From NCBI GenBank assembly GCA_041395205.1, contig JAWLAZ010000003.1, forward strand, positions 215,063 through 279,062: DNA of 64,000 bases. Reading direction: 5' to 3'. Of this stretch, positions 23,856-45,924 are shown one piece after another. The notes under the pieces were generated by a model, which did no database searches, had not been told where the DNA came from, and was given only the letters and a program-made list of their open reading frames with translations. Source of the DNA: a bacterium (lineage in GTDB: Bacteria > 4484-113 > JAFGCY01). Each line of letters opens with the position of its first letter. Position 1 is the stretch's first letter. The translations under genes were made by a program, and so were the position numbers.

Positions 23856-24205
<350 letters not shown>

Positions 24206-24296
24206 GATTTCCTCTTCCCTCTCACCCTAGGGCTCGAGGGTCTCGCGCTGCGGCTGGCAAAGCCAGCCGGGTCGCGCTGTATGGAAAGGGCTCGCG

Positions 24297-35085: not shown

Positions 35086-36039
35086 TTACTGGCGCGCGGC
35101 CCTGATCTGCTTCGCCAGCTCCGGCAGGACCTCGAACATGTCGCCGACGATCCCGTAGTCCGCCACCTTGAAGATGGGCGCGCTCTCCGTGTTGTTGATC
35201 GCCACGATCACCTTGCTGGTCTGCATGCCCGCCAGGTGCTGGATCGCACCGCTGATCCCGGCGGCGATGTAGAGCTGCGGATTGACGACCTTGCCGGTCT
35301 GGCCGACCTGGTAGCTGTGGTCAATCCAGCCCGCATCGACGATCGCCCGGGAGGCACCCATCGCGGCCCCGACCTCATTCGCGAAATCGCGGATCACGCT
35401 GTAGCCCTCGGCATTGCCGATGCCGCGCCCACCGCTGACAATGATGTCAGCATCCTTCAGGTCGATGTAGCCCGCTTCCTTCGGCTCCAGCGAGGTGCAG
35501 CGTGCCTTGCACTCCGTCCCGCTGCCGAGCTGTTCCACGCTGGCACTGCCACCTGCTGCGGCTACTGCATCGAAGTTACGTGGCCGCAGGCTCAGGACCT
35601 TCAGCCCGGAGGTGTTGAACTTCACGTGGCTGATCACCTTGCCGGCGTAGAGCGGCTTCCTGGCAACGATCTCAGAGCCGCTGCCCTCGAGGCCGATCAC
35701 GTCATTGATCCAGGCAGCGTCCAGCCTGGCAGCCAGCCGCGCTCCGAGGTCCCGCCCGAAGGCGGTCTGCATCAGGATCACGAACTCGTAGCCCCCGCTG
35801 GCGACCGTCTCACTCACGGCTGCGGCGAAGCCGTCAGCGGAATGCTCGCAGCCACAGTCCACGGCCAGCACCCGGCCCGGCCCGTAGGCGCCGAGCTGCT
35901 GGGCGGCATCAGCCGCACCCGGTCCGAACACCGCGGCGTCGAAATCTCCGCCGATCTGAGCGGCCGCGCTGGCAAGCTCTCCGGCGGAGCTCCGCAGCTG
36001 GCCTCTGAACTGTTCCGCAATAATCAGGATCCTTCCCAT
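35086..36039 (-). CDS. etfA: electron transfer flavoprotein alpha subunit
   Basis: MGRILIIAEQ N-terminus; C-terminal FAD-binding SGAIQHLAGMQTSKVIVAINNTESAPIFKVADYGIVGD. Confidence 0.85.
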   Translation of the reverse strand: MGRILIIAEQFRGQLRSSAGELASAAAQIGGDFDAAVFGPGAADAAQQLGAYGPGRVLAVDCGCEHSADGFAAAVSETVASGGYEFVILMQTAFGRDLGARLAARLDAAWINDVIGLEGSGSEIVARKPLYAGKVISHVKFNTSGLKVLSLRPRNFDAVAAAGGSASVEQLGSGTECKARCTSLEPKEAGYIDLKDADIIVSGGRGIGNAEGYSVIRDFANEVGAAMGASRAIVDAGWIDHSYQVGQTGKVVNPQLYIAAGISGAIQHLAGMQTSKVIVAINNTESAPIFKVADYGIVGDMFEVLPELAKQIRAARQ

Positions 36040-36051
36040 TTCCCTTCCCTC

Positions 36052-36834
36052 CTAGATCACCTTGGCTTCGTTGCGCAGGGCGTCAACAAGTGCGGCCACC
36101 TTGGCCTGTACGCTGTCACCTTCAATGATGCGGCCCGGCTGCTTCTGCGGCGGCAGTTCGCCACCAACGAAGCTGATCTTCGCCGCACCGGCACCGACCA
36201 CGCTGGCATCCAGCCCGAGATCGGCGATGCTCTTCTCGGCAACCGGCTTCTTCTTGGCGGCCATGATGCCCTTCAGCGAGGCATAGCGCGGCTCATTGAT
36301 GCCCTTGTCCGTCGTGAACACCGCGGGCAGGCTGCCTTCAAATGTCATGCGGCCGTTGTCACCGTCAGCAGTGGCCCTGAAGGAGCTGCCGCTGATCTCG
36401 AGCGCCGTGATCAGGCCGACATGGCCCCAGCCCAGAAGCTCGGCCAACGCGATGCCCGTCATGCCCCAGTCGCAGTCCACGCCCTGGCGGCCCGCCAGCA
36501 CCATGTCCGCGCCCAGCGGCTCGATTGCCGCCCTGAGCAGCTTCGCGAGCTGGATCGGGTCACTGCCGCTCAGCGCCGGGTCCTTGATCAGCACCGCATC
36601 CTCGGCACCGAGCGCCAGCACATTCGTCAGGTTCTTCCTGCTGTTGTCATCGCCGATCATCACGGCGGTCACGGAGCCACCGAGCTTCTCGGCCTGCTTG
36701 ATCGCTTCCTCAACCGCATATTCGTCATAGGGGTTGATGATCATCTTCACGCCGCTCAAATCCGGCTGGCCGTCCTTGAGCGTGATTCTCGCCTCGGTAT
36801 CCGGCACTTCCTTCACGATTACGACTATCTTCAT
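36052..36834 (-). CDS. etfB: electron transfer flavoprotein beta subunit
   Basis: MKIVVIVKEVPDTEARI N-terminus, typical of EtfB; start taken at the internal Met of the longer ORF. Confidence 0.85.
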   Translation of the reverse strand: MKIVVIVKEVPDTEARITLKDGQPDLSGVKMIINPYDEYAVEEAIKQAEKLGGSVTAVMIGDDNSRKNLTNVLALGAEDAVLIKDPALSGSDPIQLAKLLRAAIEPLGADMVLAGRQGVDCDWGMTGIALAELLGWGHVGLITALEISGSSFRATADGDNGRMTFEGSLPAVFTTDKGINEPRYASLKGIMAAKKKPVAEKSIADLGLDASVVGAGAAKISFVGGELPPQKQPGRIIEGDSVQAKVAALVDALRNEAKVI

Positions 36835-37005
36835 TGTCTGCACCTCGGATGGCTTCCCGGCAAACGTGGCCGGGGCCTGCCTGTGTTCGGGTCCGGTCCG
36901 CACCGGCTGTGCGGGATTCGGATTTTAGCATGTGAACCGAGTCTGAATTCACGAATCAGCACTGGCGGCAGGCGGGCTCAGGCAGCGGCGCTGTGCTTAA
37001 ATAGT

Positions 37006-39732
37006 GCCGTGCCGGCCGTGCTCCTGCTCCACTTCGAATCCCGCTTCAGTGCGAGCGGCAAGGCCGTGCTCATAACCGAGGAAAGCCGCTCCGAGTGGCC
37101 CGTGCGCCGTCGTGAGGATGCCTTCAGCAAGATCCCGGCCGGCCAGCGTCCGCTTGTGATCATAAGCGGGCTCGGTCCCGATGACTACCAGCTGGACCTG
37201 CTGCTGGCCGCCAGCCCGCAGGGCCTGGGCTACAGCTACATGGAGGACCTTGCCTACCTGCTGGGCCTGCCCCTGCCGGAGGACATCCGGGAACTGGCAA
37301 CGGCCTGGCAGTACGTGGAGAAGGCCATCGGGGAACTCGCCGATGACCTGCTGGCCCAGCTCGTGGAGCTTGTAGCCGAGTACTCCGAGGAAGCCCGCTT
37401 CGGGATCTTCCGCCATGAACAGCTGCGCCGCCATGATGCGCTCAGCATGCCGCGCGCCGGCAACGTTGAGATGGACCCCTGGTATCCGAAGAAGCAGGCC
37501 GCCGCCAGCCGTGAGCGTGGCAATGTCCCGCCGGACCTGCTGGCCCAGCTCTACAGCGCCCGCGAGAACATGTCCCGGGCCTTCCGCCAGTACGAGGAGC
37601 GTCCGCAGCAGCAGGAGATGAGTGAGGCCGTGGCCGCCGCACTGGAGAGTGGCCGCAGCCTGGTCGTGGAAGCCGGGACCGGTGTCGGCAAGTCGCTCGG
37701 CTATCTCCTGCCCCTGGCCCTGCACAGTGCGCGCACCGGTGAACTCTGCCTCGTGAGCACGAACACCATCAACCTGCAGCAGCAGATCGTGGAACAGGAC
37801 GTGCCACGCCTGCAGCAGATTCTCGGAGAGCTGCAGGTCAACATCAGCCTGCTGAAGGGCCGCGAGCACTACCTCTGCCTCAAGCGCCTGCAGGACACCT
37901 GGCTCTCCAACAACAGCGGGGCCCGCCAGCGCCGTGAGCACGCCCTGCCCAGCGGTGGCAACGGCCTGCTGTTCCTGCTGCACCTGATCATCGCCGGGCA
38001 CCGGGATGCCAACGGCGACATGGACCAGCGCCGCGCACCCGATGCCCTGCGCCTCACGGAGCGCATCCGCATCGAACGCAGCGTGGACTGCGGCTTCCGC
38101 ACCTGCCTCGGCGAGCGCTGCAACTACAAGGGCAGCTGCCACTACTTCAGCGCGCGCAACCGGGCCCAGGCCAGCCATATCGTGATCACCAACCATGCCC
38201 TGGTGTTTGCACTGTTCAATCCGGCGGATGACAATGCCGACAACATCGTGGCCAGTGCCAGCGCAATAGTCTTCGATGAGGCCCACAACCTCGAGGGCGC
38301 AATCACCAGCCAGTACACCGCCGAGGTCGGCAACATCCTGCCCGTGGATCTCGGCAACCGCCTGCTCGAGGTGCTGCAGAATGAGTCCCTGCGCCGCCGG
38401 CTGGAGCTGCCTGCAGAGTCAGTTGGTGAGGGCTCGCGCGACCTGCTGCTGCGCATCCAGCGCCAGGCCCTGCAGGTCCCGGGCTGGATCAAGGCCGGCG
38501 TCAGCGTCGTGGAACAGGTCAACCTGCTGCTCAGCCAGGCCAGCCAGAAGGGGCATCTGGACAGCGATGAAAATACGCAGCTCACCCCGGCCACGGCCAC
38601 GCCGAACCAGGCGCGGGTCATGGAACTGCTGGAACAGCTGGCCAAGCGCCTGCTGCCCGTGATCGACCGCTACCAGCGGCTCAGTGCTGATCTGAACCTG
38701 CTCTTCGCCAATGAGGACGGCGATCTCTACATCAACGATGAAGGCCTGCAGATGGACCTGCAGGACCTGCGTGTCAGTGTGGATGAATGCCGGCTGGCGC
38801 TCGAACACTGGCAGCCCGCCAATCCGGAATCAATCGCCTGGTTCAATTCAGATCTTTCCACGGCAGATCCGCGCTGGGAATACAAGACCGCCCCGCTGGA
38901 TGTCGGTGAAAGCTTCCAGTCACTGCGCAAGGCCAAGCAGGGCATCATCCTCTGCAGTGCCACCCTGACTGTCGCGGACAGCTTTGACTACCTGCGCCGT
39001 TCACTGGGCTTTGATGAGCAGTCAATTGAACAGACCGATTGGTTGAAACTGAATAGCCCCTTTGATTACGCCAGCCAGGCCCTGCTGGCCATCGCCACCA
39101 ACATGAAGCGTCCGACCGGCGATACCCGTGAGGCCTATCTGCTGCAGCTCGAGGAAGTGATCCTCGGGGTGACGGACATGATCGCGGGCGGAACGCTCGT
39201 GCTCTTCAACAGCTACCGGGATCTGAACCAGATCGCGGAGAAGCTCAGCGGAGCGATTGATGATTCCCGCCTGCTGGTGCAGGGCCGCAGTGGCTCACGC
39301 ACGCAGATCGCCGATACCTTCCGGGATGGAGGCAGCCATGTGCTGCTCGCCACCCGCTCATTCTGGGAAGGCTTCGACGTGGCCGGTGATGCCCTGAGTT
39401 GCGTGGTGCTGGCCAAGCTGCCCTTCGCCAACTTCAAGGACCCGATCCACGCCGGCCGCCAGCGGCACATCGAGAGCCAGGGTGGCGACAGCTTCCGGCA
39501 GTACAGCCTGCCGCTGGCCGCCATGCAGTTCAAGCAGGGCTTCGGGCGTCTGATCCGCACCGGCTCCGACCGTGGCGTGGTCTTCCTGCTGGACAGCCGC
39601 GCGGCCTCATCCAACTACGGCTCTGTCTTCATCAGCAGCCTGCCCGGCCCGCGTCTGACCACCGGCTCCTACCAGGCCTGCCTGGAGGAGGCCCGGCGCT
39701 TCATGGAGGACAGCCAGCATGCCGACGGGTGA
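37006..39732 (+). CDS. DinG/Rad3-family ATP-dependent DNA helicase with an N-terminal extension of about 150 aa
   Basis: Walker A AGTGVGKS, DEAH box VFDEAHNLE, an Fe-S cluster-like Cys region (CLKRL...CGFRTCLGERCNYKGSCHY) and C-terminal helicase motifs; coding-type GC3 starts near 37006; the start is uncertain (alternatives 37240 and 37471). Confidence 0.75.
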   Translation, partial: AVPAVLLLHFESRFSASGKAVLITEESRSEWPVRRREDAFSKIPAGQRPLVIISGLGPDDYQLDLLLAASPQGLGYSYMEDLAYLLGLPLPEDIRELATAWQYVEKAIGELADDLLAQLVELVAEYSEEARFGIFRHEQLRRHDALSMPRAGNVEMDPWYPKKQAAASRERGNVPPDLLAQLYSARENMSRAFRQYEERPQQQEMSEAVAAALESGRSLVVEAGTGVGKSLGYLLPLALHSARTGELCLVSTNTINLQQQIVEQDVPRLQQILGELQVNISLLKGREHYLCLKRLQDTWLSNNSGARQRREHALPSGGNGLLFLLHLIIAGHRDANGDMDQRRAPDALRLTERIRIERSVDCGFRTCLGERCNYKGSCHYFSARNRAQASHIVITNHALVFALFNPADDNADNIVASASAIVFDEAHNLEGAITSQYTAEVGNILPVDLGNRLLEVLQNESLRRRLELPAESVGEGSRDLLLRIQRQALQVPGWIKAGVSVVEQVNLLLSQASQKGHLDSDENTQLTPATATPNQARVMELLEQLAKRLLPVIDRYQRLSADLNLLFANEDGDLYINDEGLQMDLQDLRVSVDECRLALEHWQPANPESIAWFNSDLSTADPRWEYKTAPLDVGESFQSLRKAKQGIILCSATLTVADSFDYLRRSLGFDEQSIEQTDWLKLNSPFDYASQALLAIATNMKRPTGDTREAYLLQLEEVILGVTDMIAGGTLVLFNSYRDLNQIAEKLSGAIDDSRLLVQGRSGSRTQIADTFRDGGSHVLLATRSFWEGFDVAGDALSCVVLAKLPFANFKDPIHAGRQRHIESQGGDSFRQYSLPLAAMQFKQGFGRLIRTGSDRGVVFLLDSRAASSNYGSVFISSLPGPRLTTGSYQACLEEARRFMEDSQHADG

Positions 39733-40618
39733 TCTCCTGCTCATCGGTGCCGGTCCCGTGGGCTGCCTGCTGGCTTCCGCCCTGGCCAGCCGGGGACAGG
39801 CCTGCGACTGGTACATCCGCAACCCGCAGCTCCGGATACAGCTGCATGGCCTGCGCCTGCGCTTCCCGGACTCGGAGATTCAGCCGGATCTGTCTTCCGT
39901 GAACTTTCCTGAGCAGCTTGATACGCAAAAATATAACGCTGTTATAACCTGTGTGAAAAGTCAGCAGACTGAACCGCTGCTGAGCAGCCTGGACATGCCT
40001 GCGGATACGCGGATCCTGGCCGTGGCCAATGGCCTGATCAGCGGCAGCTTCCAGCTCGGCCTGCTCTACGGCGGTGCCTACCTTGATGACGAAGTGCTGC
40101 ACACCCGCCATAGCAACCTGCTGCAGATCGGCACACTCGGTGCTGCCGCTGAACACAGCGACTGGTTTGCCGAGCTGCTCCGCTGCGACTGGCTGTTCTG
40201 TGAAGGCGTCCCCGACATGGAGATCCGCCAGTGGCACAAGCTCTGCCTGAACTGCGTGCTCAACCCGCTCACGGCCCTGCTGGATGTCCCGAACGGCAGC
40301 ATGCTGGCCTCCCTCGACTCCCCGCTCGTAAGCGGACTGATCAGGGAGCTGCAGCTCGTGGCCAGTCAGCATCTCGGTTCCCGCTGGAACTACTCTGCAG
40401 AGAACATCCGCGAAGGTGTACGCCTGCTGATCGAGGCCACCATCGCCAATTCCAGCAGCATGCGAGAGGATCTGCGCCGGGGCCGCGAACCGGAGATTGC
40501 CAACATGAACGCGGCCATCGTGCGTCTGGGCGATCAGCACGGCATCCCCTGCCCGCTTCATGCAGCTGTCACGGAAATGATCAATTCCGTCAGCGAAGTT
40601 TCCGCTGAGGAACACTGA
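39719..40618 (+). CDS. 2-dehydropantoate 2-reductase (ketopantoate reductase family)
   Basis: N-terminal LLIGAGPVGCLLASAL Rossmann motif plus ApbA/PanE-like middle and C-terminal domains. Confidence 0.6.
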   Translation: MPTGDLLLIGAGPVGCLLASALASRGQACDWYIRNPQLRIQLHGLRLRFPDSEIQPDLSSVNFPEQLDTQKYNAVITCVKSQQTEPLLSSLDMPADTRILAVANGLISGSFQLGLLYGGAYLDDEVLHTRHSNLLQIGTLGAAAEHSDWFAELLRCDWLFCEGVPDMEIRQWHKLCLNCVLNPLTALLDVPNGSMLASLDSPLVSGLIRELQLVASQHLGSRWNYSAENIREGVRLLIEATIANSSSMREDLRRGREPEIANMNAAIVRLGDQHGIPCPLHAAVTEMINSVSEVSAEEH

Positions 40619-40647
40619 TCAGCCGGCTGATCTGCTAGCATCAAGGC

Positions 40648-41055
40648 ATGCGCTGCCAATCCATATTAGTTAGCTTCGTCCTGAGCCTGAGCCTGCTGTC
40701 CTGTACTCGCGATGAAACCGATGGCGAACGGATCGTGAAAACGGAGACCATTCCGCTGCAGGAGAATGCTCCGCTGCGTGATGAGGGAGAGCAAGTCGGG
40801 GATCTCACAGCGGAGTCCATTCAGACTGAAGCGGGTGAGCGCATCATCGGCGGGATCCCCACCATGATTCCACCCGGCACCACACACTGGCCCAACGGCA
40901 ATCCCCTGCCGCCCGAGGTGCTCGAGATCATCCGCAAGCTGGAAGCCGGCGAGCCGATCAGCTCCGATGACGAAACCACCTTCCGGGCCATTGATGCCAA
41001 ATGGCGCAACTGGGATGAAATCGAGGCCACCGGGAAAAGCCAGTCTGATTCCTGA
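40648..41055 (+). CDS. small hypothetical lipoprotein
   Basis: Lipobox LSLLSC; it shares the motif IPPG(T/L)THWP(N/S)G...WR.WD..EA.G with the adjacent large protein; GC content is somewhat below the window average. Confidence 0.5.
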   Translation: MRCQSILVSFVLSLSLLSCTRDETDGERIVKTETIPLQENAPLRDEGEQVGDLTAESIQTEAGERIIGGIPTMIPPGTTHWPNGNPLPPEVLEIIRKLEAGEPISSDDETTFRAIDAKWRNWDEIEATGKSQSDS

Positions 41056-41212
41056 GTTCCGGCCTGATTTAACCCGTTCCCCGCGCCGCCCACTGTCCAA
41101 TCAGGCTGCTGCTTGATACTATATTGTGTCGCCGCTGAACAGCCCGGGCTGGCAGGGCGTCATGTCATCTGTGTACTCAGGGACAACTTCTTTTCAGGTG
41201 GAAGGCTAAACA

Positions 41213-43765
41213 GTGAAGATTCTCAGACTCATGGCTGTGTCGGTGATGTGCTCCGCCGCTGTGTTCGGCGCGTGTACCAGCAGCAACTCCCCGACCACGA
41301 ACAACATCCAGACCAACTCGCAGTACGACTCGCAGTACAGAGACCAGACCCGCTCCGCCAACCAGCAGAACCGGACAGCGGAGGAAGCGGCGGAGATGGG
41401 CGACCCCCCGATCACGCTGATGGTCGTGGCGATGGAAACCGGCGATGTCTTCCCGGGCGAGGATTACTTCATCTATGTCGTGGATGACAACCCCGATGGC
41501 CGTGACCTCGAGTATGAGTGGGGCGTGGTCAATGGCGACATCTGGCCCGTGGCGGAGGCCGACCGCGGCCGGCTGCGCACGATTGTCGAGACCGAGTACA
41601 ACACCGCGCAGCCTGAAATCGCTGCCCCGACCACGCAGGACCCCGCCGCCGGAGCCTTCGGTGATACAGTCGCCGGCACCGGTGATGCCGTGGCCCCTCC
41701 GGGGGCCCAGGCCCCGGGTGCTGGAGGCCAGCCCGCTGCAGGCGCCAGCGCCACCCAGCAGCCAGCGGCAGGTGGCAGCGGCACGCAGCAGCCGGCTGCC
41801 AATGGCAATACGCAGCCTGCCCAGAACACGAATGCGGACACCCAGAATACGGACAGCACCAGCGGCAACCAGGACCTGTTCAACAACACCACGGGCGGCA
41901 GCAGCCAGCAGCCTGCCCATAACACGGATACCTCGCAGCGTGGAGATGATTCCGGCAAGCCCCAGGTGGATGGTCCGTACTCACCCTATCTGGTTTCAAA
42001 GCTGACCGAGGAATACCCCTATGGCACGGAAGGCAAGAGCACCATCATTCCTCCAGGCCTGACCCACTGGCCCAGTGGCGTGCAGTTTGATGCTTCCTTC
42101 ATGGAGATCCAGAACAAGCGCAAGAACAATGAAACACTCACTGCCGATGACCTGATCACGCTCGGCTCATTTGACGACAAGATGCGCAGGTGGGATGCCC
42201 TGGATGCCGAAGGCAGAGCCCAGGGTGACCGGGGCAGCATTGATGACGGCTACATCATGCGCCGCATGGTGGTTGCCGGCCAGGCCGTGATTGACGATGA
42301 AGGCCGCCGCATGGACAACGAGGTGGCTGGCAACGTGGTGGACAAGTCCATCGAGAACGCCACCGCCATGCTGGAGGAACAGCTCGGCACGGAGTATGAG
42401 GATGTCGAGGTCGTGGAGGCCCCGCAGCGCGAATATGACAGCCGGGGCCTGCGCTATGAGTACCAGGACTGGCAGGATGAGAGCACTGAGCCACGCCGGC
42501 GTGGTCTGGGTGGATACGGCGCTGAGTACAGCGATGATGACCCGGCGGATGCCGAGGACAGCTTTGAGCGCTACAGCCTGATCACCGATGATCCCTACAT
42601 TGAGTGGACTCCGCGCACTCCCGGCCGCGTCAACATCTGGGTGCGCGCCATGTACCACGATGAATACGTCACCGAGGCCCGCAACCTGGAGGTCGAGGTC
42701 CGCCTGCGCGACCCCGAAGTCGAGATGGTCAAGGACTTCCCGGACGTCGTGCGTGAGGATGAGTCCGTGTATGTCCGCATCGACGGCAGCAACCTGCCGG
42801 ACTTCGACAAGGGCCTGTTCACCCTGAGCTTTGACAACACCAAGCTCAGCTTCCGCGAGGCCGAACTCGGTGAGTTCTTTGACGACTACTCCGATGCCAG
42901 CATCTACTTCGCCCAGCCCAACAAGGACGAAGGCAAGGTCCTGATCGCCCTGGACAGCAACACCGTGCTCACGGAACCCTCCGGTGACGGTGCGCTGGTC
43001 TACGTGAAGTTCAAGGCCAAGGAGGATCTGGAGACCGCGGACGAGACCCAGCTCTCGATGGTGATGGACACCAGCGCGCGCTACATCCTCGACAAGGACG
43101 GCACCAACGTCCTGCCCCTGCCGCTCAACCTCCCGCCCTGGCGCACGCAGCTCGTGATGCCTCCGGAGCTGCCGAACTACGAGCGTGAGAACACCCCTGG
43201 CACCCAGGCCGGCACCGTCCCGACCGGCAACCGCACGCCTCCGGGTGCCCAGGCTCCGGGCACGCAGACCCCTGCCACATCCGGCACCGGCAGCACAACC
43301 CAGGTCCCGCTTTCCGGTGGCAATGCCTTCACCCAGGACAGCGGCTTCCTCTCCAACGGTGGACGCAGCGGGACAGTGCCAGTGAATAACGGCAGTAACA
43401 CCGGCAACAACACGAATACCGGCAACAACACCAATACCGGCAACAACACGAATACCGGCGACAACACCAATACGGGTAACAACACGAATACCGGCAACAC
43501 GGGCGGCGGTCCGATTTCCGCCAAGCAGAGCAGTGATTCCGATGAGGATGATCCGGCTGCGGCTGATGCCAAGGAAGGTTCAGAGGATCCGGCAGCCGCT
43601 GGCAGTGGGAAGACTGAGGATCCTGAAGCGGGATCTGAGGAGCCTGCAGCCGACGATCCCGCAGGAGCTGAGCCTGCTGCGGACGAACCGGCCAAGGATG
43701 AACCGGCCAAGGACGAGCCCAGGAAGGATGAACCGAAGAAGGATGAACCGAAGAAGGACGAGTGA
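41213..43765 (+). CDS. large secreted low-complexity surface protein (850 aa)
   Basis: GGTGGAAGG RBS before the GTG; signal/lipobox AAVFGAC; Q/A/G/T-rich linkers; a central copy of the IIPPGLTHWPSG motif; (TGNNTN)n and (KDEPK)n C-terminal repeats. Confidence 0.6.
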   Translation: MKILRLMAVSVMCSAAVFGACTSSNSPTTNNIQTNSQYDSQYRDQTRSANQQNRTAEEAAEMGDPPITLMVVAMETGDVFPGEDYFIYVVDDNPDGRDLEYEWGVVNGDIWPVAEADRGRLRTIVETEYNTAQPEIAAPTTQDPAAGAFGDTVAGTGDAVAPPGAQAPGAGGQPAAGASATQQPAAGGSGTQQPAANGNTQPAQNTNADTQNTDSTSGNQDLFNNTTGGSSQQPAHNTDTSQRGDDSGKPQVDGPYSPYLVSKLTEEYPYGTEGKSTIIPPGLTHWPSGVQFDASFMEIQNKRKNNETLTADDLITLGSFDDKMRRWDALDAEGRAQGDRGSIDDGYIMRRMVVAGQAVIDDEGRRMDNEVAGNVVDKSIENATAMLEEQLGTEYEDVEVVEAPQREYDSRGLRYEYQDWQDESTEPRRRGLGGYGAEYSDDDPADAEDSFERYSLITDDPYIEWTPRTPGRVNIWVRAMYHDEYVTEARNLEVEVRLRDPEVEMVKDFPDVVREDESVYVRIDGSNLPDFDKGLFTLSFDNTKLSFREAELGEFFDDYSDASIYFAQPNKDEGKVLIALDSNTVLTEPSGDGALVYVKFKAKEDLETADETQLSMVMDTSARYILDKDGTNVLPLPLNLPPWRTQLVMPPELPNYERENTPGTQAGTVPTGNRTPPGAQAPGTQTPATSGTGSTTQVPLSGGNAFTQDSGFLSNGGRSGTVPVNNGSNTGNNTNTGNNTNTGNNTNTGDNTNTGNNTNTGNTGGGPISAKQSSDSDEDDPAAADAKEGSEDPAAAGSGKTEDPEAGSEEPAADDPAGAEPAADEPAKDEPAKDEPRKDEPKKDEPKKDE
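43399..43500 (+). repeat. 18-bp in-frame tandem repeat (ACCGGCAACAACACGAAT, about 5.5 copies) inside the large surface protein gene
   Basis: Seen directly; it encodes (TGNNTN)n; a second 15-bp repeat (AAGGATGAACCGAAG, encoding KDEPK) lies at about 43690-43762. Confidence 0.7.
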
Positions 43766-43785
43766 TCCTTCCATCCAGCAGAAAA

Positions 43786-43822
43786 ACGAAAAGCCCGCTG
43801 CATGCAGCGGGCTTTTTTGTTG
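43786..43822. terminator. bidirectional rho-independent terminator
   Basis: GAAAAGCCCGCTGCATGCAGCGGGCTTTTTTGTT has a 9-bp GC stem flanked by an A-run and a T-run, and sits between convergent genes. Confidence 0.7.
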
Positions 43823-43839
43823 CCAATCCGTCGCCTGAG

Positions 43840-45924
43840 CTAGTGCGCTTCGGCCTTCTGGCTGGCCTGGTGGGCCTTGATGATCTCACCCTGGACATTG
43901 CTCGGGACCTGCTCATAGCTGGCGAACTCCATCTCGAAGCTGCCCTGCCCCTGCGTCATTGAGCGCAGCGTGTTGATGTACTGGTACATCTCCGCCAGCG
44001 GCACCTGGGCCTTGATCTCCTTGATGTTGCCAACCTGGTCCATTCCGCCCACGCGGCCGCGGCGGGTGTTGAGGTCCGCCATCACGTCGCCGGTGTACTC
44101 ATCGGGCGTCTGGACCGTCACGTTGTAGATCGGCTCCAGCAGGATCGGCCGGGCCTGCTCAAAGGCTGAGCGGAAGCCCATCTGCGCCGCCATCTTGAAG
44201 GACAGCTCGTCGGAATCCACACTGTGGCTGCTGCCATCGAACACGGCGGCCTTGATGTCGATCACCTTGCTGCCGCTCAGCGGACCGTTGACCATCGCTT
44301 CCACGATGCCCTTTTCGATCGCCGGGATGAAGCGGCCCGGCACCACGCCGCCCACCACCTCATCATTGAACTCAAATCCCGCGCCGCGTTCCTTCGCCTC
44401 GAGGCGGATGTGGCAGTCGCCGTACTTGCCGCGGCCGCCGGACTGCTTCTTGTACTTGCCCTGCGCGCTGGCATTGCCGGTGATCGTCTCGCGGTAGCGG
44501 ATGCGCGGCTTCTCCCACTTGATGTCAACGCTCGTGCGCTTCCTGACCTGTGCACGCGCCACGTCCAGGTGCAGCGGACCCATGCCGTAGAGCACCTGCT
44601 CCTTGGTCTCCTCATCCTGCACGAGGCGCAGCGTGGGATCCGCCGCGGTCAGCACGTGCAGGGCGCTGATCACTTTCTCCAGGTCATTGTGGTCGTCAAC
44701 CTCGACCTTCTCGTAGGCCACCGGACGGCGGTATTCGATGTCATCGAGGATGAAGGGCTGGTCCTTGGAGCAGATGGTGTTGCCCATCTTCGTGTGCTTG
44801 AGTTTCATCGTGGCCACGATGTCCCCGGCACTGACCTCATTCACATCCTTGCGCTCCTTGCCGCGCATCAGGATCAGGTTGCCGATCTTCTCCTGCTCAT
44901 CCGTGCTGGAATTGAGTACGGTGTCGCTGTTCTTGAGCTTGCCGCTCCAGATCCGCATCCAGAACACGTCGCCGACCTGGCCCTCGCTCGTGACCTTGAA
45001 CACGCGCGCCGTGAGCGGTGCGTCGTCACTGGGCGGACGCGACTCCTCGCTGCCGTCGGGCTTGCGCCCGTGCAGCTTCTCGTGGAAGCCGGGATGCGGC
45101 ATGCTGTGGATGATGATCTCCAGCAGGTTGCGGATCCCCACGGTCTCCTTGCCGCTGCCGCCCACCGCGGGGCAGAACTTGCCGTGCAGGATCCCGTCCA
45201 TCATCGCCTTCTCGAGCTCGGCCTCGCCGATCGTCTCGTCATCCATGTAGCGCATCATCAGCTCATCGTCGAGCTCCACGATGCTTTCCACGAGGTCCGC
45301 CCGTGCGGCCTCCATCGCTTCCCTGTAATCCTCGGGGACTTCCTTCTCGACGATCTTGTCGCCTTCCTTCACGTATGCCTTTCTGAGCAGCACATTGATC
45401 ACGCCCCTGAGGTCGTGGTGCTCCCCGATCGTGATGCACAGTGGTGCCACCGTCTTGCCGAACTCGGCCCGGCAGCTGCCGATGGCGTTGTCCCAGTCCG
45501 CGTTCTCCTTGTCGAGCCCGCTGATGAAGATCAGGCGCGGCAGGTGCAGCTTCTCGCAGGTCTGCCAGAAGATGCGGGTCTGCGGCTCGACGCCCATCGA
45601 ACCGTTGACAACGATGATCGCGCTGTCAACGACGTTGAGGGCGGAGGTCGACTCGCCGAGGAAGTCGCGGTAGCCCGGGCAGTCGATCAGGGTGAAATGG
45701 TGGTCCTCGAAATCGAAGGGCAGCACTGCGCTGGTAATTGAGTATTTCCGCTTTATCTCTTCCGGATCGTGGTCACTGACGGTATTCCCGTCCTCGATCG
45801 TCCCCATCCTGTTTATCGCCCCGGCGACATAGAGGATCGCCTCGCTCAGTACCGTTTTCCCGGCACCGCCGTGTCCGATGATTGCTACGTTGCGCTTCTT
45901 GTCTATCGCTACGCCCATAGCCAA
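43840..45924 (-). CDS. elongation factor G family translational GTPase (EF-G paralog)
   Basis: G domain AIIGHGGAGKT, DCPGYRDF, the five-domain EF-G architecture and about 694 aa; the divergent G1 motif suggests EF-G2-like rather than canonical FusA. Confidence 0.75.
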   Translation of the reverse strand: MAMGVAIDKKRNVAIIGHGGAGKTVLSEAILYVAGAINRMGTIEDGNTVSDHDPEEIKRKYSITSAVLPFDFEDHHFTLIDCPGYRDFLGESTSALNVVDSAIIVVNGSMGVEPQTRIFWQTCEKLHLPRLIFISGLDKENADWDNAIGSCRAEFGKTVAPLCITIGEHHDLRGVINVLLRKAYVKEGDKIVEKEVPEDYREAMEAARADLVESIVELDDELMMRYMDDETIGEAELEKAMMDGILHGKFCPAVGGSGKETVGIRNLLEIIIHSMPHPGFHEKLHGRKPDGSEESRPPSDDAPLTARVFKVTSEGQVGDVFWMRIWSGKLKNSDTVLNSSTDEQEKIGNLILMRGKERKDVNEVSAGDIVATMKLKHTKMGNTICSKDQPFILDDIEYRRPVAYEKVEVDDHNDLEKVISALHVLTAADPTLRLVQDEETKEQVLYGMGPLHLDVARAQVRKRTSVDIKWEKPRIRYRETITGNASAQGKYKKQSGGRGKYGDCHIRLEAKERGAGFEFNDEVVGGVVPGRFIPAIEKGIVEAMVNGPLSGSKVIDIKAAVFDGSSHSVDSDELSFKMAAQMGFRSAFEQARPILLEPIYNVTVQTPDEYTGDVMADLNTRRGRVGGMDQVGNIKEIKAQVPLAEMYQYINTLRSMTQGQGSFEMEFASYEQVPSNVQGEIIKAHQASQKAEAH

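What the first reader, a model, noticed from the sequence alone, without database searches (positions are those of the whole stretch)
40648..43765. Shared uncharacterised motif between a small lipoprotein and an adjacent 850-aa repeat-rich surface protein
The 135-aa lipoprotein contains IIGGIPTMIPPGTTHWPNGNPLPPEVLEIIRKLEAGEPISSDDETTFRAIDAKWRNWDEIEATG. The large neighbour contains a clearly related segment, TIIPPGLTHWPSGVQFDASFMEIQNKRKNNETLTADDLITLGSFDDKMRRWDALDAEGRAQG. The conserved core is PPG.THWP.G ... W(R/N)WD..EA.G. This suggests a duplicated domain of unknown function in two tandem secreted proteins. The large gene also carries in-frame 18-bp and 15-bp tandem DNA repeats encoding (TGNNTN)n and (KDEPK)n. 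These could vary in length. The small gene has slightly lower GC than its surroundings.
Basis: seen in the sequence. Interest (0 to 1): 0.5.

Follow-up and report, generated by a model that had tools for sequence, protein, structure and literature searches.

The report
Duplicated orphan module in two lipoproteins
Two neighbouring lipoprotein genes of an uncultured bacterium (candidate phylum UBP7) share a real, folded module of about 70 residues that matches no known family; it is confined to this one locus in one small clade, so it is a sound but modest finding with no demonstrated function.

Summary
The 135-aa lipoprotein and the 850-aa neighbour share a 66-residue ungapped match (41% identity, E 2e-15). 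Its score is about 20 sd above shuffles, so composition does not explain it.

The shared segment is a folded module: a beta-hairpin, a Pro/Trp loop and three helices (AF2 pLDDT 86). It has no Pfam, NCBIfam or PDB relative.

An exhaustive HMM search of 1.84 billion representative proteins found only 7 real clusters. Every one I could place lies in the same syntenic slot (DinG helicase, PanE, small gene(s), large gene, convergent EF-G) in one subclade of candidate phylum UBP7.

Deeper-branching relatives keep the large lipoprotein at that slot. They have no small gene and only the central helix-turn-helix of the module. So the small gene is an old partial duplicate of one module of the large gene. 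It is under purifying selection (dN/dS 0.26) and was duplicated again in two genomes.

The large protein is beads on a string, with a cohesin-like module supported by Pfam and Foldseek.

In this window the large gene's copy of the module sits in a recombinant cassette (dS 1.7 against 0.2-0.4 in the flanks). The in-frame repeats are real and differ between relatives. The low GC of the small gene is unremarkable.

Function is inferred only: a tethered binding module.

The parts
40648..41055 (+). Small lipoprotein gene (135 aa). Signal peptide ends in lipobox LLSC, with Cys19 at 40702-40704. An acidic, polar linker covers aa 20-63.
   Evidence: ORF. An identical protein is on record as hypothetical (P0001). 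Orthologues occupy the same slot in L001, L002, L003 (two copies), L004, L009, L018/L019 and L020 (two copies). dN/dS against L002 is 0.096/0.367.
40837..41052 (+). Shared module, copy 1 (small protein aa 64-135)
   Evidence: BLASTP. Local HMM hit at E 9e-37. AF2 pLDDT 86, pTM 0.70, with strands 2-4 and 7-9 and helices 26-36, 43-57 and 59-70.
41056..41212 (.). 157-bp spacer between the two genes. It holds only a weak terminator-like hairpin at 41100-41117.
   Evidence: The number of terminator-like sites in the region is not above the shuffle expectation (4 found, 2.7 expected).
41213..43765 (+). Large lipoprotein gene (850 aa, GTG start). The motif ACTSS, with Cys21, is invariant in 14 orthologues.
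   Evidence: It lies in the syntenic slot between panE and convergent EF-G in all 11 or more lineages examined.
41396..41617 (+). N-terminal folded beta/alpha module (aa 62-135), conserved in all orthologues
   Evidence: AF2 pLDDT 80-88. Many invariant columns in A2. No Pfam hit.
41618..42001 (+). Disordered P/A/G/Q-rich linker (aa 136-263), including 30-bp tandem repeats at 41729-41807
   Evidence: pLDDT below 50. TRF.
42008..42232 (+). Shared module, copy 2 (large protein aa about 266-340)
   Evidence: BLASTP. HMM hit at E 2e-30. pLDDT 79-88 within the full-length model, with the same secondary-structure pattern as copy 1.
41906..42247 (+). Divergent recombinant cassette (aa about 232-345) relative to the closest relative, L002
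   Evidence: No blastn match at 41905-42218, while the flanks are 93% and 86% identical. Only 3-16 of 30 aa are identical, against 28-30 of 30 in the flanks. dS is 1.69 against 0.19-0.38. The nearest sampled allele is L018, at 56%.
42536..42712 (+). Small beta-sandwich module (aa 442-500)
   Evidence: AF2 pLDDT 73-88, all-beta. Highly conserved.
42725..43072 (+). Cohesin-like module (aa about 505-620; Pfam match 531-620)
   Evidence: PF00963 at 26.8 bits, above the cut-off of 24.1, E 6.8e-6. 11 of 14 orthologues match. The top 43 Foldseek PDB hits are all cohesins, best 4uyq_A at E 6.7e-4, TMt 0.49.
43400..43499 (+). 18-bp in-frame tandem repeat x 5.6, encoding (TGNNTN)n within the disordered tail
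   Evidence: Unit and copy number differ between orthologues.
43681..43758 (+). 15-bp in-frame tandem repeat x 4.3-4.7, encoding (KDEPx)n at the extreme C-terminus
   Evidence: P0003 has one unit fewer. The terminal EPKKDE is shared by P0003, P0004 and P0006.
43789..43816 (.). Perfect 12-bp-stem hairpin between the large gene and convergent EF-G; a likely bidirectional terminator
   Evidence: It also appears as an inverted self-match in blastn.

Best explanation
SHOWN. The two genes encode lipobox-bearing proteins that share one autonomous module of about 70 residues: a beta-hairpin, an IPxGxTxWPxG loop and three helices with a GExLTxDE turn.

The module belongs to a tiny, previously undescribed family. 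That family exists only at this locus, in one subclade of candidate phylum UBP7.

The large protein is ancestral. Deeper relatives have it at the same position with only the central helix-turn-helix and no small gene. The small gene arose once, by partial duplication of the module region, and gained its own signal peptide and lipobox. It has been kept under purifying selection and was duplicated again in one sublineage.

The large protein is a string of four folded modules joined by long disordered linkers and ending in a disordered, repeat-bearing tail. The modules are an N-terminal beta/alpha module, the shared module, a small beta-sandwich and a cohesin-like module.

INFERRED (mechanism). 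The shared module is a protein- or ligand-binding head held on a flexible tether from the membrane. The small lipoprotein is a short-tether, stand-alone copy that engages the same partner as the large protein's copy. It could act as co-receptor, membrane-proximal anchor or competitor.

The large protein's copy appears to be exposed to diversifying pressure, because it sits in a cassette exchanged by recombination between lineages while remaining under purifying selection.

The partner is unknown.
For: - Similarity is significant and not compositional.
- The module folds on its own: pLDDT 86, pTM 0.70 alone, and pLDDT 79-88 inside the full-length model, flanked by segments with pLDDT below 50.
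- The family is tiny. Ten proteins reach E<=1e-3 among 1.84 billion representatives and 7 are real: 6 small proteins and 1 large-protein cluster.
- All copies I could place sit at one locus.
- Five deeper lineages (L005, L006, L014, L015, L016/17) have panE directly followed by the large gene. They have no small gene and at most a weak match to HMM positions 24-55.
- In the domain tree, small copies and large copies form separate groups. The A/B small paralogues of L003 and L020 pair across genomes.
- Purifying selection acts on the small gene (dN/dS 0.26) and on the cassette (0.45/1.69).
- The cassette is a recombinant mosaic.
- The cohesin-like module is supported by Pfam and Foldseek.
Against: - No function, partner, expression or localisation is shown.
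- The co-occurrence of small gene and full module traces to a single clade, so it is one evolutionary event and not independent evidence of functional coupling.
- When the large gene's cassette was replaced (about 50% identity to L002's), neither the small protein (93% identical in the module) nor the cohesin module (aa 501-660: dN 0.008, 96% nt identity) changed. So there is no co-evolution signal for a specific interaction between them.
- Surface exposure is inferred only. The proteins could be periplasmic.
- AF2 used shallow alignments (8 and 14 sequences).
Confidence: 0.6

Rival explanations
1. The shared module is a non-canonical, dockerin-like ligand of the cohesin-like module in the large protein. 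The small lipoprotein would dock onto the large protein, and large proteins could self-associate in trans through module-cohesin contacts.
For: A cohesin-like module is present in the same protein. The shared module is about the size of a dockerin, is largely helical and is tethered by flexible linkers. No dockerin-type Ca-binding loop is encoded anywhere in the 64-kb window. Cohesins normally act by binding a small helical partner (PMC3821032).
Confidence: 0.12
2. The small ORF is a decaying by-product of a partial duplication with no function of its own. Only the large protein matters.
For: It is short, has no family annotation, is restricted to one clade and has slightly lower GC.
Against: The ORF, with its lipobox Cys, is intact in the nine sampled contigs (eight or so genomes) across substantial divergence, with module identity down to about 45-55%. 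dN/dS is 0.26. A second tandem paralogue is retained in both L003 and L020.
Confidence: 0.05
3. The similarity is chance or low complexity, or it is an artefact (gene conversion or chimeric MAG assembly).
For: Both proteins contain low-complexity stretches, and the source is a metagenome-assembled genome.
Against: E 2e-15 with composition adjustment. The score is about 20 sd above shuffles. The pair is present in independent assemblies, including a closed 4.1-Mb chromosome. Only 56% nt identity and a longest identical run of 10 nt argue against recent conversion or duplication artefacts.
Confidence: 0.01

Closest known systems
Non-cellulosomal cohesin-bearing proteins (Pfam PF00963). Survey by Peer et al. 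2009, FEMS Microbiol Lett 291:1, cited in PMC3821032; what that survey reports is recalled from my own knowledge.
   Same: The large protein has a single cohesin-like beta-sandwich recognised by both sequence and predicted structure. It sits in a modular, linker-rich, membrane-anchored protein of a non-cellulolytic lineage.
   Different: No dockerin partner has been identified and there is no carbohydrate-active context. The anchor is an N-terminal lipobox rather than SLH or sortase. The match is marginal in score (26.8 bits) and the model confidence in this region is moderate (pLDDT 54-78).
Dockerin modules (Pfam PF00404)
   Same: The shared module is comparable in size (about 65-70 aa), mostly helical and tethered by linkers. 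It occurs in proteins that accompany a cohesin.
   Different: The shared module lacks the duplicated Ca-binding F-hand loops that define dockerins. It has an N-terminal beta-hairpin and a Pro/Trp loop instead. There is no sequence or fold match.
Lineage-specific orphan domains shared between a large envelope protein and a small adjacent paralogue made by partial gene duplication. This is a general, common pattern (own knowledge).
   Same: One module was copied into a stand-alone gene next to its parent. Both are kept under purifying selection, and there has been further tandem duplication.
   Different: Here the family is exceptionally narrow (7 clusters in 1.84 billion representatives). It is tied to one syntenic slot between housekeeping genes in an uncultured candidate phylum.
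Variable, recombining segments of bacterial envelope proteins (mosaic alleles of adhesins or phage receptors; own knowledge)
   Same: A sharply bounded cassette has several-fold higher dS than its flanks. In-frame tandem repeats differ between relatives.
   Different: No host, phage or immune context is known. Only one exchange event was detected, among a handful of sampled genomes.

Membership tests
Cohesin (PF00963), for large protein aa ~505-620 | Sequence match above Pfam's gathering score | tested here: met
   26.8 bits against a cut-off of 24.1, E 6.8e-6. 11 of 14 orthologues match at E<0.01.
Cohesin (PF00963), for large protein aa ~505-620 | Cohesin-type beta-sandwich (jelly-roll) fold | tested here: met
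   In a Foldseek search of the AF2 model against PDB, ranks 1-43 are all cohesin modules. The best is 4uyq_A at E 6.7e-4, TMt 0.49, rmsd 2.8 over 97 columns. Model pLDDT here is only 54-78.
Cohesin (PF00963), for large protein aa ~505-620 | Binds a dockerin partner (Ca-dependent heterocomplex; PMC3821032) | not testable with these tools
   No complex prediction or whole-genome dockerin scan was available.
Dockerin (PF00404), for the shared module | Two tandem F-hand Ca-binding loop-helix repeats, detectable by the Pfam model | tested here: not met
   No Pfam hit at E<=1 for the small protein. The only hits for the large protein are Cohesin and a spurious one. A regex for the Ca loop finds nothing in the six-frame window. 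The loop residues are basic or Pro-rich.
Dockerin (PF00404), for the shared module | Dockerin fold | tested here: not met
Bacterial lipoproteins (SPase II substrates) | N-terminal hydrophobic signal ending in a lipobox with an invariant Cys | tested here: met
   Small protein...SLSLLSC19, with a Cys preceded by a hydrophobic stretch in all orthologues. Large protein: ACTSS with Cys21 invariant in 14 sequences. This is pattern inspection only. No dedicated predictor was run, and lipidation is not shown.
LTXXQ / CpxP-Spy periplasmic family (PF07813) | LTXXQ motifs and a Pfam match | tested here: not met
   The turn motif is GExLTxDE, with spacing LTxxxQ/E in deeper orthologues. No Pfam hit at E<=1.
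New module family (this report) | A profile match over about 70 residues that includes both the IPxGxTxWPxG loop and the C-terminal RxW..G helix | tested here: met
   Both window copies match the 11-sequence HMM end to end, at E 9e-37 and 2e-30. Seven clusters match in 1.84 billion representatives.

The most novel reading that the evidence does not exclude
The shared module is a new, calcium-loop-free class of cohesin ligand. The small lipoprotein and the large cohesin-bearing lipoprotein would then form a self-assembling envelope scaffold unique to candidate phylum UBP7, with the recombining cassette tuning its specificity.
Probability: 0.1. Interest if true: 0.6.

Novelty: new variant of a known kind. 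Interest (0 to 1): 0.3.

Why it matters
It documents an undescribed folded module and a phylum-wide conserved, cohesin-bearing lipoprotein in UBP7, an uncultured candidate phylum whose envelope biology I found no account of (one literature search).

The local history is unusually clean: an ancestral helix-turn-helix, then an elaborated module, then a partial duplication into a stand-alone lipoprotein, then a second tandem duplication. A recombinant cassette lies on top of that. Together these make a small worked example of how envelope proteins gain new parts.

Practically, the module could be deposited as a new domain family.

Without a partner or phenotype, its importance stays local.

Tried and rejected
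- Word-indexed searches with the small protein and with the 11-sequence module alignment returned almost nothing: 2 hits and 1 hit. The exhaustive HMM search was needed.
I rebuilt the alignment as A4.
- The weak hits P0021-P0023 match only the central helix-GExLTxDE-helix, repeatedly, in unrelated repeat proteins. I rejected them as family members.
- A PDB sequence search with the large-protein profile found nothing meaningful.
- NCBIfam gave no hit for either protein.
- The AFDB50 fold library was unavailable.
- The gene-conversion idea (large copy homogenised with small copy) is rejected: 56% nt identity and 45% at third positions.
- The idea that L002, rather than the window, is the recombinant is rejected. 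The L002-L001 cassette dS (0.46) equals its flanks, while the window's cassette is the outlier against both.
- Low GC as a sign of horizontal origin of the small gene is rejected (10th percentile only).
- No sigma-70-like promoter was found, and terminator-like sites are not enriched in the region.
- The literature search on UBP7 gave only survey papers.
Full report
OBSERVATION

Both ORFs are present at the stated coordinates: 40648-41055 (135 aa) and 41213-43765 (850 aa, GTG start). BLASTP aligns small residues 69-134 with large residues 274-339 without gaps, at 41% identity and E 2e-15 with composition adjustment.

An ungapped BLOSUM62 score of 148 compares with a mean of 1.0, sd 7.1 and maximum 30. 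Those figures come from 2000 shuffles of the small segment scanned along the entire large protein. At the DNA level the two segments are 56% identical, 45% at third codon positions, and the longest identical run is 10 nt. This is an old duplication, not recent conversion or an assembly artefact.

TRF confirms the 18-bp array (43400-43499, 5.6 copies) and the 15-bp array (43681-43758, 4.3-4.7 copies). It adds a 30-bp array at 41729-41807.

The small gene's GC (0.591) is at the 10th percentile of equal-sized windows (mean 0.633, sd 0.031), which is not noteworthy.

WHAT THE TWO PROTEINS ARE

Neither protein matches NCBIfam. The small one matches no Pfam family at E<=1. The large one matches Cohesin (PF00963, residues 531-620, 26.8 bits against a cut-off of 24.1), and 11 of 14 orthologues do so too.

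A full-length AF2 model with 14 sequences shows four folded parts:
- 62-135, beta/alpha, pLDDT 80-88
- 264-340, the shared module, pLDDT 79-88
- 442-500, all-beta, pLDDT 73-88
- 505-620, all-beta, pLDDT 54-78

These are separated by segments with pLDDT below 50 (136-263, 337-441) and followed by a 190-residue low-confidence tail that carries the repeats.

A Foldseek search of this model against PDB returns cohesin modules at ranks 1-43. The best is 4uyq_A at E 6.7e-4, TMt 0.49.

Both proteins start with a hydrophobic signal ending in a Cys: LLSC19 in the small one and GAC21 in the large one. ACTSS is invariant in all 14 large orthologues. Every small orthologue has an equivalent Cys. Lipoprotein status is therefore well supported by sequence pattern, but lipidation is not demonstrated. 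Whether the proteins face the periplasm or the outside is unknown.

THE SHARED MODULE

Modelled alone from an 8-sequence alignment, it gives pLDDT 86 and pTM 0.70. The model has a beta-hairpin (2-9), a Pro/Trp-rich loop (IPxGxTxWPxG), then helices 26-36, 43-57 and 59-70 with a GExLTxDE turn between the first two.

Across 11 copies the invariant residues are P12, P19, K34, E39, D44, D53, R57 and G66.

HOW WIDE THE FAMILY IS

An exhaustive HMMER search of 1.84 billion representative proteins with the module profile found 10 proteins at E<=1e-3. Seven are real: six small proteins of 100-140 aa and one cluster of large proteins. The other three match only the central helix-turn-helix, repeatedly, in unrelated repeat proteins.

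In the 64-kb window there are exactly two copies.

The source organisms are MAGs labelled UBP7, in some records as 'Planctomycetales bacterium'. They include a closed 4.1-Mb chromosome, CP060262.1.

GENOMIC CONTEXT AND HISTORY

In every lineage examined the large gene lies in the same slot: DinG-type helicase, PanE/ApbA, then the large gene, then a convergent EF-G paralogue.

In the window and in L001/L008, L002/L007, L004/L010, L009 and L018/L019, one small gene sits between panE and the large gene. In L003 and L020 there are two. In all of these the large protein carries the full module.

In five deeper lineages (L005, L006, L014, L015, L016/17) panE is followed directly by the large gene. 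There is no small gene, and the large protein keeps only a helix-GExLTxDE-helix at the homologous position. The best HMM hit there is E 0.001-0.002, to positions 24-55.

In the domain tree the small copies group together and the large copies group apart from them. The A and B small paralogues of L003 and L020 pair across genomes.

The simplest history has four steps:
1. The ancestral large lipoprotein had a helical hairpin at this position.
2. One subclade elaborated it into the full module.
3. The module region was copied once into a new upstream gene with its own lipoprotein signal.
4. That gene was duplicated again in one sublineage.

The small gene is under purifying selection, with dN/dS 0.096/0.367 against L002.

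The perfect co-occurrence of small gene and full module is one phylogenetic event. It is therefore not independent evidence of functional coupling.

A MOSAIC INSIDE THE LARGE GENE

The window and L002 are 93% identical in DNA from 35217 to 41905 and 86% identical from 42218 to 43835. There is no blastn match for the 313 bp between them.

In protein terms, residues about 232-345 share 3-16 of 30 residues per sliding window, against 28-30 of 30 in the flanks.

| Comparison | Cassette dS | Flank dS |
|---|---|---|
| Window vs L002 | 1.69 (dN 0.45) | 0.19-0.38 |
| L002 vs L001 | 0.46 | 0.5-0.6 |

The window is the outlier against both relatives. So the window's lineage carries an imported, divergent allele of exactly the segment that contains the shared module. 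The nearest sampled allele is L018, at 56%. The cassette is still under purifying selection (dN/dS about 0.26).

Neither the small protein (93% identical in the module) nor the cohesin module (dN 0.008) changed with it.

HOW IT MOST LIKELY WORKS (INFERENCE)

Both proteins are membrane-tethered, and the module sits on flexible linkers. Its fold is small and helical, with conserved charged positions. I read it as a binding head.

On this reading the small lipoprotein is a short-tether copy that engages the same partner as the large protein's copy. It could act as co-receptor, anchor or competitor.

The cassette exchange and the variable in-frame repeats fit an exposed, selection-prone region. 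I put about 0.6 on the whole statement. Most of that rests on the shown parts; the binding-head mechanism alone deserves perhaps 0.3.

The most interesting rival is that the module is a non-canonical ligand of the protein's own cohesin-like module. I give it about 0.1, for four reasons:
- The module lacks the Ca-binding F-hand repeats that define dockerins (PMC3821032 for the definition).
- It has no fold match to dockerins.
- The cohesin is conserved in lineages that lack the full module.
- There is no co-evolution signal.

COMPARISON AND NOVELTY

The large protein is a new member of the loosely defined set of non-cellulosomal cohesin-bearing proteins. That survey is Peer et al. 2009, cited in PMC3821032; its content is from my own knowledge.

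The shared module is not in Pfam, NCBIfam or PDB, and it is restricted to one locus in one clade of an uncultured phylum. It is a new domain family, but of an ordinary kind: a lineage-specific module spread by local partial duplication. I rate it a new variant of a known kind, with interest 0.3.

LIMITS

- No expression, localisation, lipidation or interaction data exist.
- The AF2 alignments were shallow.
- The rest of the genome could not be scanned for dockerins or further module copies.
- The AFDB fold library was unavailable.

Noticed in passing
window 41906-42247: The segment of the large gene that encodes the shared module is a recombinant cassette. It has no DNA match to the closest relative, whose flanks are 86-93% identical. 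dS is 1.69 against 0.19-0.38 in the flanks. The window lineage is the outlier against both L002 and L001.
   Followed up: yes
L003 3299-4086; L020 4474-5303: Two relatives carry two tandem small lipoprotein genes, an A type and a B type. The A and B copies pair across the two genomes, so a second duplication predates their split. In the A type the conserved Trp of the WPxG loop is replaced (ADPGG / TDPGG).
   Followed up: partly
window 23856-24209 (+): Complete bacterial class A RNase P RNA (Rfam RF00010, 225.9 bits). No tRNA genes occur anywhere in the 64-kb window.
   Followed up: no
window 35236-39732 (+): The 1498-aa ORF listed here is over-extended by the high GC content. Relatives call a 904-922-aa DinG-type helicase (DEAD_2 plus Helicase_C_2) ending at the same place, with ETF alpha/beta genes on the opposite strand upstream. 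The panE start (39719) overlaps the helicase stop by 14 nt.
   Followed up: partly
window 43789-43816: A perfect 12-bp-stem GC-rich hairpin flanked by A and T runs lies between the convergent large gene and the EF-G paralogue. It looks like a bidirectional terminator and is conserved in L001 and L002.
   Followed up: partly
window 43840-45924 (-): The convergent neighbour is an EF-G paralogue of 694 aa. Its best NCBIfam match is the PRK12740.1-5 subfamily (834 bits), and it scores below the cut-off of the canonical EF-G equivalog TIGR00484 (634.6 against 659.4). It keeps its position next to the large lipoprotein gene in every UBP7 lineage examined.
   Followed up: no
window 43747-43765 and orthologues P0003, P0004, P0006: The extreme C-terminus, EPKKDE, is identical in several orthologues even though the preceding 190-residue tail is highly variable. 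It might be a short functional or sorting motif. It matches no signal I know of.
   Followed up: no
P0022 (345 aa): An unrelated secreted protein is built of repeated 'KxxAGETLTADEQAQLD' helix-turn-helix units. These resemble the central turn of the module and the ancestral hairpin of deeper large-protein orthologues. The motif may be a common simple helical-hairpin building block.
   Followed up: no
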